Below, piece after piece: positions 925 through 1,629 of a stretch of DNA of 3,964 nt; position 1 is the first letter of the stretch, and each line of letters opens with the position of its first letter. A model generated the notes under the pieces. It searched no databases. It was not told the origin of the DNA and saw only the letters and a list, made by a program, of their open reading frames with translations. Origin of the DNA: Escherichia coli (GTDB lineage: Bacteria; Pseudomonadota; Gammaproteobacteria; Enterobacterales; Enterobacteriaceae); the NCBI RefSeq assembly GCF_003334385.1, contig NZ_QOWN01000090.1; one strand, written 5' to 3'. Made by a program: the position numbers and the translations under genes.

Positions 925-1629
925 ATGGCTCAACAAGTAATTAGCTTTAATAATGAATTCTCAATGTCTTCCTACGAGTTTCTGACCACGATTATCAATC
1001 CAGCCCGTGAAGAAGCAGGGGAGAAACCTGTCCGAAATAATGCCTTTATAGAGCGTGTCCGTGATGAATTGGACGGTTGCCAAAATTTGGTAAGCGATAT
1101 GGTTACACCAGCCGGAGGTGGTACTCCTATGGAAAACGTCATCCTCAATGGCGATCAATTACTTCTGGTCGGTATGCGAGAGTCTAAAGCTGTGCGTCGT
1201 AAGGTTCTGGAGTACATTCGACGAATTGAGAAGGCTAAGCAGTTATTGGAAGACCAGAAGAAACGAGCAGCTATCCAGTCAGCTAACCGTCGTGGCGTAA
1301 CGTGGGGTGATTTCTGTAAGGCCAACGAGCTACCCGCACAGAAACTACTACTTGCGCTCAGGAAGCAGGGACGCCTATTACGCTGGCGCATGGATAATAC
1401 TGTCACGGTTCATCCGCATTTTGCGCAATACTTTCGGATCATCAAATATAATGATGCGAAGTTCAGCTCTACAGGTATCAACTTCAGGTTGAACACCAAG
1501 GGGGTGGAGTTCTTCTCACAACCCGACCGTGTGGCCCGCTTCCGGGAAATCCTTGTTGAGCAATACGGGTCTGATATTGACAAGCAACGTCTATTGCAGT
1601 CGAAAGCGCGGCAGGCTGTAGAGTTATGA
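925..1629 (+). CDS. Phage regulatory protein, Rha / antirepressor-like (Rha-like N-terminus with KilA-C/ANT-like C-terminal domain)
   Basis: ATG at 925 is preceded by AAGGAG. The track ORF 829..1629 starts 32 codons upstream with no ribosome-binding site, so 925 is preferred. The N-terminus (SMSSYEF..VRDEL) resembles the Rha family MSSrEIA..VLRDI pattern. The C-terminus (LLLALRKQGRLLRWRMDNTVTVHPHFAQYFRI..NTKGVEFF) resembles the antirepressor C-terminal domain pattern. Both are recalled from memory, not searched. Confidence 0.7.
   Translation: MAQQVISFNNEFSMSSYEFLTTIINPAREEAGEKPVRNNAFIERVRDELDGCQNLVSDMVTPAGGGTPMENVILNGDQLLLVGMRESKAVRRKVLEYIRRIEKAKQLLEDQKKRAAIQSANRRGVTWGDFCKANELPAQKLLLALRKQGRLLRWRMDNTVTVHPHFAQYFRIIKYNDAKFSSTGINFRLNTKGVEFFSQPDRVARFREILVEQYGSDIDKQRLLQSKARQAVEL

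What the first reader, a model, noticed from the sequence alone, without database searches (positions are those of the whole stretch)
925..1629. Rha/antirepressor-like regulator carried as cargo without any repressor, integrase or structural genes
The Rha/Ant-type protein family normally sits inside prophage regulatory regions. Here it is isolated within a repeat-bounded cassette downstream of phage-polymerase promoters. This is consistent with an element that manipulates a co-resident or infecting phage, for example derepressing a prophage or interfering with lytic growth, rather than being a complete prophage.
Basis: partly seen in the sequence, partly recalled or inferred. Interest (0 to 1): 0.5.

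Follow-up and report, generated by a model that had tools for sequence, protein, structure and literature searches.

The report
T7-promoter-driven gene on a mini-island
The gene is a real antirepressor/Rha-like DNA-binding protein, and it sits behind promoters that should only be read by the RNA polymerase of T7-like phages, inside a 4.8-kb mobile island at a tRNA-Gly gene of E. coli, so it probably switches on only when such a phage infects.

Summary
The ORF at 925-1629 is a real gene under purifying selection (dN/dS 0.20-0.26). Pfam and NCBIfam give no hit. PHROG "anti-repressor Ant" profiles (E 1e-8), fold matches to phage KilA/KilAC proteins (E 7e-9) and a sister allele with a near-threshold pRha domain place it in the Ant/Rha/KilA class.

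The "bounding repeats" are two inverted ends of IS421, not the edges of the element. In intact genomes the gene lies in a 4.3-4.8-kb island bounded by tRNA-Gly att repeats (attR = 2682-2710). The order is integrase, RAZR/PD-T7-4 (a known anti-T7 RNase, truncated here by the IS), tandem T7 promoters, a highly conserved structured non-coding block, an AT-rich CTTAAAG array, a variable ORF1 slot, and a conserved ORF2.

Other alleles carry perfect 23-nt T7 consensus promoters. Sister islands carry Kayfunavirus-type promoters instead. No sigma-70-like promoter was found on the coding strand.

Best reading: a phage-RNA-polymerase-triggered operon on a mobile mini-island that acts on infecting T7-like phages. 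Whether it only defends or is also mobilised as a satellite is unresolved. No description of it turned up in the literature I could search.

The parts
1..74 (.). End of an IS421 (IS4-like) copy. It marks the contig boundary and is not part of the island.
   Evidence: It is identical, in inverted orientation, to the right end of the window. It matches thousands of E. coli places. IS421 transposase is annotated next to the same ygeQ junction in TOE17 and EC17CM13.
75..314 (+). Last 240 nt of the RAZR / PD-T7-4 gene (DUF4145 HEPN RNase), truncated by the IS insertion.
   Evidence: 100% identical to strain H7, where the CDS is complete at 209 aa. PADLOC PD-T7-4 E 2.9e-100. Function from PMC13017515.
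319..341 (+). T7-type promoter P1, TAATACGACTCAGTATGGGGAGA (2 mismatches, at -5 and -1). The -5 G also occurs in T7 phi1.3.
   Evidence: The best phage match of its surroundings is T7 phiOR. Other alleles have 0 mismatches.
429..451 (+). T7-type promoter P2, CAATACGACTCGCTAATGGGAGA (4 mismatches), followed by a T7-style 5' stem-loop leader (GGGAGAG...CCCTCT).
   Evidence: The leader is compared with phi10 and phi3.8. The stem reading is by eye, not tested.
483..650 (+). Highly conserved non-coding block, transcribed from P1/P2, with a predicted multi-stem structure. The outer stem is ACTTATCG/CGATAAGT and an inner hairpin is CATCC/GGATG.
   Evidence: Nearly invariant among alleles. The 208-nt stretch 453-660 is 96.7% identical to the Yersinia copy, while dS of the neighbouring ORF2 is 0.53. 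Compensatory changes are seen. Folding z-score is -2.8. No Rfam family and no phage homology.
412..780 (+). Array of six CTTAAAG heptamers (412-711) and an 80% A+T stretch (640-780).
   Evidence: 9 matches on both strands against 0.65 expected. AT content. T7 clusters the same YYTAAAG class at its genome ends.
846..885 (+). Conserved leader hairpin upstream of ORF1. It is shared by islands whatever gene fills the ORF1 slot.
   Evidence: 7 pairs keep pairing after changes on both sides.
925..1629 (+). ORF1, the gene of the finding: 234 aa, Ant/Rha/KilA-class two-domain DNA-binding-type protein.
1930..2406 (+). ORF2: 158 aa, GTG start, conserved helical protein of unknown fold, found only in these islands.
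   Evidence: 26 relatives, all in Enterobacterales islands. dN/dS 0.18-0.20. AF2 pLDDT 69 with no fold match. No PHROG, PADLOC, NCBIfam or PDB hit. Absent from 50,697 phage records.
2682..2710 (+). attR: direct repeat of the 3' end of tRNA-Gly(CCC). This is the right boundary of the island.
   Evidence: 27 of 29 nt match attL in H7, spaced 4768 bp apart. In MLI106K3 the repeat is 23 of 23 nt, spaced 4304 bp.
2866..3892 (+). Chromosomal ygeQ (glycoside hydrolase 15) pseudogene with an in-frame stop at 3658-3660. It is the flank of the island, not part of it, and is cut by the second IS421.
3893..3964 (.). End of a second, inverted IS421 copy (contig boundary).

Best explanation
ORF1 is the promoter-proximal gene of a two-gene operon (ORF1-ORF2) that is probably read by the single-subunit RNA polymerase of T7-group phages rather than by the host polymerase. 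The operon is the right half of a 4.3-4.8-kb integrative mini-island inserted in tRNA-Gly(CCC). The island's left half encodes a long tyrosine integrase and usually RAZR/PD-T7-4, a known anti-T7 abortive-infection RNase.

Proposed sequence of events. In an uninfected cell ORF1 and ORF2 are silent. When a T7-like phage infects and makes its polymerase, the tandem promoters fire. The transcript carries a structured, highly conserved leader and then ORF1 and ORF2. ORF1 is an Ant/Rha/KilA-class DNA-binding-type protein. Together with ORF2 it then acts on the infecting phage, most likely interfering with its development as a second, infection-induced layer beside RAZR.

Shown: the gene, its family class, the promoters and their phage-genus specificity, the island anatomy, the conservation, and the lack of a sigma-70-like promoter by consensus scan.

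Inferred: that the promoters are used in vivo, that expression is confined to infection, and that the outcome is interference.
For: Promoters. There are two T7-type promoters in the window, with 0 expected in shuffles. Alleles carry perfect 23/23 T7 consensus copies, some in tandem. In all 17 islands scanned, strong phage-type promoter matches lie only on the + strand, between the integrase side and ORF1. Sister islands with ORF1 homologues carry promoters identical to the 9 promoters of the Kayfunavirus phage vB_EcoP_F, plus a Dev2/SFPH2-type promoter.

No sigma-70-like site was found on the + strand of 75-2900.

Linkage to anti-T7 defence. The neighbouring gene is RAZR (PMC13017515).

Real, constrained genes. 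dN/dS is about 0.2 for both ORFs.

The ORF1 slot is variable while its leader is conserved, which is hotspot-like.

The island is discrete. It has att repeats, uses the same tRNA-Gly in E. coli, Yersinia and Pectobacterium, and the exact ORF1 always sits in the same int-RAZR-ORF1-ORF2 order.

Full-length ORF1 and ORF2 are absent from 50,697 phage genomes. Only ORF1's N-domain occurs there, in proteins annotated as antirepressor or regulator.
Against: There are no expression data. The window's own promoters deviate from consensus (2 and 4 mismatches) and may be weak.

ORF1 and ORF2 match no PADLOC model. RAZR alone is sufficient for defence in published work, so no need for ORF1/ORF2 has been shown.

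The AT-rich array, the tandem promoters and the extreme conservation of the non-coding block are not explained by a simple induced-effector model. They fit a replication or mobilisation role at least as well.

The absence of a host promoter rests on a consensus scan only, and read-through from int-RAZR is not excluded.
Confidence: 0.5

Rival explanations
1. The island is a true minimal satellite of virulent T7-like phages. The phage RNAP induces it. Promoter plus AT-rich region acts as a T7-type replication origin. The island excises via its integrase, is amplified by the phage replisome, and is packaged as concatemers of about 8-9 copies into T7 capsids. ORF1 and ORF2 would serve excision, replication or packaging control. 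Any interference with the phage would be a by-product.
For: Integrase with intact att sites and a very small size. All four genes point the same way, so a circular or concatemeric form would be fully transcribed from the T7 promoters. Tandem T7 promoters followed by an 80% AT stretch resemble the T7 origins phi1.1A/B and phiOL (the origin requirement is from my knowledge of Richardson-lab work, not checked here). The CTTAAAG array is of the same heptamer class that T7 concentrates at its genome ends. The non-coding block is 96.7% identical between E. coli and Yersinia while dS of neighbouring ORF2 is 0.53, and is also nearly identical in Citrobacter, which implies recent spread or strong constraint on a cis-acting site. 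PICMIs (from my own knowledge) are a precedent for minimal satellites of virulent phages packaged as concatemers.
Against: No replication initiator, primase, terminase or capsid gene is present. No homology to any phage genome end or pac region was found beyond the promoters themselves. The ATCTGTT-like motif between P1 and P2 is not conserved among alleles. The Kayfunavirus-type islands do not mirror that phage's CCTACAG end arrays. No circular or concatemeric copy appeared among 19 metagenome contigs; the one 4.9-kb contig I checked base by base (L039) is chromosomal and the others show the chromosomal gene order. The three IMG/VR contigs appear, from their identifiers, to be provirus calls from isolate genomes.
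Confidence: 0.27
2. ORF1 is a conventional antirepressor that inactivates the repressor of a co-resident temperate prophage.
For: Its N-domain occurs in 313 phage genomes, many of them temperate (for example Stx-converting phages), in proteins annotated as antirepressor. PHROG Ant families match.
Against: Expression signals are T7-group promoters, and T7-group phages are virulent and lack repressors. The same slot holds unrelated proteins in other alleles. The full-length architecture is found only in these mini-islands, never in the phage records. No repressor partner sits nearby.
Confidence: 0.05
3. The region is a decaying remnant of an integrated T7-like prophage or of old phage DNA. The promoters are relics and ORF1 has no current role.
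For: The window's promoters are degenerate (2 and 4 mismatches). IS elements have invaded the island in several strains: IS421 in RAZR here, IS3 in the non-coding region, IS1 in ORF1.
Against: Other alleles keep perfect consensus promoters. Both ORFs are under purifying selection. The non-coding block is far more conserved than synonymous sites. No T7-like gene is present and there is no nucleotide homology to T7-like genomes beyond the promoters. The architecture recurs across genera and with promoters of different phage genera.
Confidence: 0.06
4. ORF1 (or ORF2) is the recombination directionality factor or regulator that the phage RNAP switches on so that the integrase excises the island during infection.
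For: No Xis/AlpA-type gene is present in the island. ORF1 has winged-helix-like domains. ORF2 co-occurs with the tRNA-Gly type of island.
Against: ORF1 is replaced by unrelated proteins beside integrases that are about 81% identical at the nucleotide level. ORF1 homologues also occur with an integrase that is only 31% identical and uses a different insertion site. ORF2 has no recognisable DNA-binding fold.
Confidence: 0.1

Closest known systems
Phage antirepressor / Rha / KilA-type regulatory proteins (Pfam ANT PF03374, Phage_pRha PF09669, KilA-N)
   Same: Two-domain build with an N-terminal DNA-binding-type domain and a C-terminal winged-helix-like domain. PHROG Ant profiles and BFVD KilA/KilAC structures match. 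The N-domain is common in temperate and other phages.
   Different: It does not reach any Pfam or NCBIfam threshold. The full-length architecture is confined to mini-islands. There is no repressor partner. It sits under promoters of virulent T7-like phages.
RAZR / PD-T7-4 defence locus (Vassallo 2022, PMC9519451; PMC13017515, Nature 2026)
   Same: This is the same locus. The RAZR gene, which overlaps or abuts an integrase gene, lies directly upstream of the promoters.
   Different: The published work treats RAZR as a single-gene system. In the text searches I ran, the T7 promoters, the non-coding block, ORF1 and ORF2 downstream are not mentioned.
Minimal satellites of virulent phages (PICMI in Vibrionaceae; PLE of V. 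cholerae/ICP1)
   Same: A small integrative island with an integrase, tied to a virulent phage and linked to phage defence. (Recalled from my own knowledge, not tested here.)
   Different: No replication initiator, AlpA or packaging genes. The link to the phage is through the phage's own RNAP promoters. Mobilisation has not been shown.
T7 replication origins and genome-end repeat arrays (phi1.1A/B, phiOL, SRL/SRR)
   Same: Tandem T7 promoters followed by AT-rich DNA, and an array of YYTAAAG heptamers.
   Different: The AT-rich stretch begins about 190 nt after P2 rather than directly after it. The heptamer is CTTAAAG rather than CCTAAAG. There is no alignable homology to T7 ends.

Membership tests
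Rha family (Pfam PF09669 Phage_pRha / NCBIfam TIGR02681) | N-terminal pRha domain scoring above the family threshold | tested here: not met
   No Pfam or NCBIfam hit for the window protein. A sister allele (L076) scores 40.8 bits against a cut-off of 45.95 and shares only the C-terminal half with the window protein.
Ant / KilAC antirepressors (Pfam PF03374) | ANT/KilAC domain recognisable by profile | tested here: inconclusive
   Pfam ANT does not match the query but matches 6 of 36 relatives that share its N-domain. PHROG Ant families match at 1.3e-8 and 2.7e-5. BFVD KilA/KilAC structures match at E 7e-9 to 6e-7, with TM-scores of only 0.3-0.45.
Ant / KilAC antirepressors | Binds and inactivates a phage repressor; encoded in a (pro)phage regulatory region that has a cognate repressor | tested here: not met
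   The context criterion fails: no repressor or prophage genes occur in any locus. Binding activity cannot be tested with these tools.
T7-group (Teseptimavirus) RNAP promoters | 23-nt consensus TAATACGACTCACTATAGGGAGA with the specificity region (-12 to -8) intact | tested here: met
   Window copies have 2 and 4 mismatches, with ACGACT intact. Alleles have 0-1 mismatches. Shuffles give 0. Compared with the 17 T7 promoters.
T7-group RNAP promoters | Transcribed by the phage RNAP in vivo or in vitro | not testable with these tools
   Needs in vitro transcription or RNA-seq during infection.
Phage satellites (P4-like, PICI, PLE, PICMI) | Integrase and att sites; discrete excisable island | tested here: met
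   535-aa tyrosine integrase. attL and attR are the tRNA-Gly 3' end, 23-29 nt.
Phage satellites | Own replication module (initiator/primase plus origin) | tested here: not met
   No such gene among the four. Only an origin-like promoter plus AT-rich arrangement is present.
Phage satellites | Helper-compatible packaging signal or packaging/capsid-redirecting genes; presence in virions | tested here: not met
   No similarity to phage ends beyond the promoters. No terminase or capsid genes. No circular or concatemeric contigs found. Presence in virions cannot be tested here.
Anti-phage defence systems (PADLOC) | Match of ORF1/ORF2 to a known defence protein model | tested here: not met
   No PADLOC hit for ORF1 or ORF2. 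Only the neighbouring gene matches (PD-T7-4, 2.9e-100).
Defence hotspot on a mobile element | Variable gene content between conserved flanks, next to known defence genes | tested here: met
   The slot after the integrase holds RAZR, a 202-aa protein, a 125-aa protein, or nothing. The ORF1 slot holds an Ant-like, a KilA-N, a 163-aa or a 130-aa protein. The leader and ORF2 stay conserved.

The most novel reading that the evidence does not exclude
These islands are a previously undescribed class of minimal mobile elements of Enterobacterales that use the promoters of virulent Autographiviridae (T7-type, Kayfunavirus-type, Dev2-type) as their infection sensor. The phage's own RNA polymerase switches on the island. 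The promoter/AT-rich region then serves as a T7-style origin, and the island is amplified and carried between hosts in T7-like capsids while blocking the phage. On this reading it is a T7 satellite with phage-RNAP-dependent induction.
Probability: 0.25. Interest if true: 0.9.

Novelty: new variant of a known kind. Interest (0 to 1): 0.7.

Why it matters
Natural E. coli chromosomes carrying perfect 23-nt T7 promoters are unexpected. T7 RNAP is usually treated as orthogonal to host DNA.

Here the promoters sit on a mobile mini-island directly beside a characterised anti-T7 system, and sister islands carry the promoter type of other T7-like genera. This suggests a general and simple way for host elements to sense infection: borrow the phage's own promoter.

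If confirmed, it would add an induction logic to defence islands and satellites. It would explain what lies downstream of the RAZR locus. It would give a tractable model (T7 and E. coli) for interference with, or hijacking of, virulent podophages. It would also matter for phage therapy and for T7-based expression in wild strains.

Tried and rejected
1. Pfam, NCBIfam and PADLOC on ORF1 and ORF2 gave no significant hits.

2. PDB sequence search with profiles of both proteins found nothing.

4. Rfam on the whole window found no family.

5. BLAST of the non-coding regions of three island types against 50,697 phage records matched only the promoters, so I dropped the idea that the conserved block is a copied pac or end sequence.

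6. I suspected a T7 concatemer-junction pause site (ATCTGTT) between P1 and P2. The motif is not conserved among alleles, so I rejected it.

7. I checked whether the Kayfunavirus-type islands mirror that phage's CCTACAG end arrays. They do not.

8. I looked for excised or concatemeric forms in IMG/VR and metagenome contigs. All copies looked chromosomal; L039, at 4.9 kb, was checked base by base.

9. A GTDB species-representative scan with ORF2 found nothing. The scan with ORF1 found only N-domain relatives.

10. Eight literature searches and text searches within three papers found no description of T7-promoter islands or T7 satellites. Two further searches failed for lack of capacity. The library lacks most subscription journals, so absence is not proof.

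Full report
**What the window is.** Bases 75-3892 are 100% identical to the chromosome of E. coli strain H7. The first 74 and last 72 bases are the same end of IS421 in inverted orientation. An IS421 transposase is annotated at the same ygeQ junction in other strains. So the window is a chromosomal segment, probably an assembly contig, bounded by two IS421 copies.

**The real element.** In intact genomes the order is: actS, tRNA-Gly(CCC), a 535-aa tyrosine integrase, a 209-aa DUF4145 protein, about 600 nt of non-coding DNA, ORF1, ORF2, and then ygeQ and the ETT2 secretion genes.
- A 29-nt direct repeat of the tRNA 3' end lies after ORF2, at window 2682-2710. This makes a discrete island of 4768 bp in H7.
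- In a RAZR-less allele the repeat is 23 nt and the island is 4304 bp.
- The same island sits in tRNA-Gly(CCC) in Yersinia enterocolitica and Pectobacterium, and next to tRNA-Gly(TCC) in two IMG/VR-derived contigs.
- The DUF4145 gene is PD-T7-4 (PADLOC 2.9e-100). It has been renamed RAZR. It is a HEPN RNase that aborts infection when it assembles on the portal proteins of T7, T3 and other phages (PMC13017515).
- Vassallo et al. noted only that PD-T7-4 often overlaps an integrase gene (PMC9519451).
- In the window, the left IS cuts RAZR, leaving its last 240 nt (75-314).

**The gene of the finding.** The CDS at 925-1629 is real.
- It has a strong Shine-Dalgarno sequence, and RefSeq annotates the same CDS.
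- It has more than 400 homologues, and dN/dS is 0.20-0.26.
- Pfam and NCBIfam give nothing significant.
- PHROG families labelled "anti-repressor Ant" match at 1.3e-8 (aa 73-222) and 2.7e-5. A family of unknown function matches aa 4-50 at 5e-12.
- A full HMMER scan of 1.84 billion representatives shows that the widely shared part is the N-terminal domain, about aa 5-110 (355 hits).
- Among 36 such relatives, 6 carry a Pfam ANT/KilAC domain and 1 carries pRha.
- The same N-domain occurs in 313 phage genomes, in proteins annotated as antirepressor or regulator. No phage protein covers 80% of ORF1.
- The C-terminal half (aa 87-230) is 50% identical to a sister-island protein that RefSeq names "Rha family transcriptional regulator". 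That protein's different N-domain scores 40.8 bits on TIGR02681, below the cut-off of 45.95.
- I conclude that ORF1 belongs to the Ant/Rha/KilA class by remote homology, with a swapped N-domain. It is not a threshold-level member of Pfam Rha or ANT.

**The promoters.** Window 319-341 and 429-451 match the 23-nt T7 consensus with 2 and 4 mismatches, and the specificity region ACGACT is intact. None is expected by chance.
- The -5 G of P1 also occurs in T7 phi1.3.
- The decisive evidence is comparative. Other alleles of the same island carry perfect 23/23 T7 consensus promoters, some in tandem.
- In 17 islands the strong phage-type promoter matches lie only on the coding strand, between the integrase side and ORF1.
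- The Yersinia, Pectobacterium and Citrobacter copies carry variants of the motif.
- Full-length ORF1 homologues at about 60% identity lie in a second island lineage. Its integrase is 31% identical (E 1e-60). It is inserted in a molybdopterin oxidoreductase gene or at glyU.
- The non-coding region of that lineage carries GACTAAACTATCACTATAGGG. This matches the promoter consensus that occurs nine times in Kayfunavirus phage vB_EcoP_F. It also carries a promoter type found in the Dev2/SFPH2 phages.
- So island lineages carry the promoter specificity of different Autographiviridae genera. This is hard to explain unless the promoters are used.
- A consensus scan finds no sigma-70-like promoter on the coding strand of 75-2900.

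**The non-coding region.** Between P2 and ORF1 there are three features.
- The first is a block at about 483-650 that is almost invariant among alleles. The 208-nt stretch 453-660 is 96.7% identical to the Yersinia copy, while synonymous divergence of the neighbouring ORF2 is 0.53. It is predicted to fold with an outer stem ACTTATCG/CGATAAGT that shows a compensatory UA-to-CG change in one lineage, an invariant CATCC/GGATG hairpin, and a second hairpin with compensatory changes. The folding z-score is -2.8. It has no Rfam family and no similarity to any phage genome.
- The second is an 80% A+T stretch (640-780) with six CTTAAAG heptamers on one strand: 9 matches on both strands against 0.65 expected. 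T7 concentrates the same YYTAAAG class at its genome ends, with 19 of 34 copies there.
- The third is a leader hairpin at 846-885. It is conserved, with compensatory changes, whatever gene fills the ORF1 slot.

**ORF2 and the variable slots.** ORF2 (1930-2406) is a conserved helical protein with dN/dS of about 0.19.
- It has only 26 relatives, all in these islands: E. coli, Yersinia, Pectobacterium, Morganella and Citrobacter.
- It matches no family, fold or phage record.
- The ORF1 slot is variable. It holds the Ant-like protein here, a KilA-N protein, a 163-aa protein or a 130-aa protein elsewhere, and these are unrelated in sequence.
- The slot after the integrase is also variable: RAZR, a 202-aa protein, a 125-aa protein, or nothing.
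- This is how defence hotspots on mobile elements behave.

**How it most likely works.** Shown: the anatomy, the family class, the promoters and their phage-genus specificity, the purifying selection, and the att sites. Inferred: that the operon is silent until a T7-like phage supplies its RNA polymerase, and that ORF1 and ORF2 then act on the phage.
- I put 0.5 on an infection-triggered interference module that complements RAZR.
- I put about 0.27 on a true minimal satellite that is also replicated and packaged.
- For the satellite: the T7-origin-like promoter plus AT-rich layout, the co-orientation of all genes, the near-identity of the cis block across genera, and the small size.
- Against the satellite: no replication or packaging genes, no similarity to phage ends, no conserved concatemer-junction motif, and no excised or concatemeric copies in the public contigs examined.
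- The two readings are not exclusive.
- A classical antirepressor role against resident prophages (0.05) and a decaying relic (0.06) fit the data poorly.

**Novelty.** The protein class, RAZR and integrative mini-islands are all known. What appears undescribed, in the library I could search, is the placement of an Ant/Rha-class gene and a private partner gene under genuine phage-RNAP promoters on a mobile island, with promoter types tracking different T7-like genera. That library lacks most subscription journals. I rate it a new variant of a known kind: a phage-inducible island or defence hotspot with a new sensing logic.

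Noticed in passing
window 1-74 and 3893-3964: Both contig ends are the same end of IS421 in inverted orientation. One copy interrupts RAZR and the other interrupts ygeQ. The ygeQ insertion point recurs in other strains (TOE17, EC17CM13).
   Followed up: yes
window 483-650; alignment A5: A non-coding block far more conserved than synonymous sites of the flanking genes. It has a predicted multi-stem structure and a few compensatory changes. It has no Rfam family and no phage homologue. Its role (RNA leader, cis-acting DNA site or origin) is unknown.
   Followed up: partly
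window 846-885; alignment A6: A conserved hairpin in the leader just upstream of the ORF1 slot. It is kept, with compensatory changes, across T7-type and Kayfunavirus-type islands and whichever gene follows it.
   Followed up: partly
window 412-711: Six same-strand CTTAAAG heptamers. The Yersinia copy has a longer, roughly 11-nt-period array. T7 clusters the related CCTAAAG/CTTAAAG heptamers at its genome ends and near phiOL.
   Followed up: partly
L018 7098-7690, L076 4415-5030, L079 4710-5160: Sister islands carry Kayfunavirus-type promoters (GACTAAACTATCACTATAGGG) and a Dev2/SFPH2-type promoter in front of an ORF1 homologue. That homologue is followed by unrelated 163/169-aa and 329-aa proteins with no family hits. 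196 of 5426 complete E. coli genomes have related sequence.
   Followed up: partly
L022 4020-4160 and L004 4383-4432: Arrays of 10-nt repeats (CTCTATAGGTCT.. / CTGTATGGCC..) rich in GGTC, between the AT-rich region and ORF1. They resemble clusters of T7 primase recognition sites (GGGTC/TGGTC), or they could be iterons. I did not test this statistically.
   Followed up: no
L015 4640-7630: A Yersinia-like allele has a truncated RAZR (51 aa) and two extra reverse-oriented genes. It also has a third T7-type promoter followed by a (CTCAAA)n repeat, and an ORF2 homologue with an N-terminal extension (208 aa).
   Followed up: no
L084 7951-12705; L083 7876-9828: A second integrase-bearing element is integrated in tandem right after attR of the mini-island. 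In L084 it is a P4-like satellite (integrase, AlpA, Bro-N, Phage_ASH, primase). In L083 it is another DUF6538 integrase with an AAA_13 protein.
   Followed up: no
L081, L085, L088 at 4443-5671; L022 4560-5310: IS elements are inserted inside the island in several strains. An IS3-family element sits in the non-coding promoter region, and IS1 sits inside an ORF1 homologue.
   Followed up: no
window 2866-3903: ygeQ (glycoside hydrolase 15 family) has an in-frame TGA at 3658-3660, and the reading frame continues afterwards. It is a pseudogene here, as in many E. coli, while some strains keep an intact 536-550-aa gene.
   Followed up: partly
phage record OR844776.1 (Escherichia phage ECO111 5-P, 5129 bp): An unannotated 5.1-kb record deposited as a phage shares only the 77-nt IS421 end with the window. 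What this record is remains unclear.
   Followed up: no
window 123-168 versus L004 3660-3708: The sequence GGTAACCAAGCTGTC.ACCCCGGGGAGAT..GCCTTGAGGATGACC lies inside the 3' part of RAZR here. In RAZR-less islands it lies directly after the integrase stop codon. This suggests that RAZR was inserted or lost by recombination at this point.
   Followed up: no
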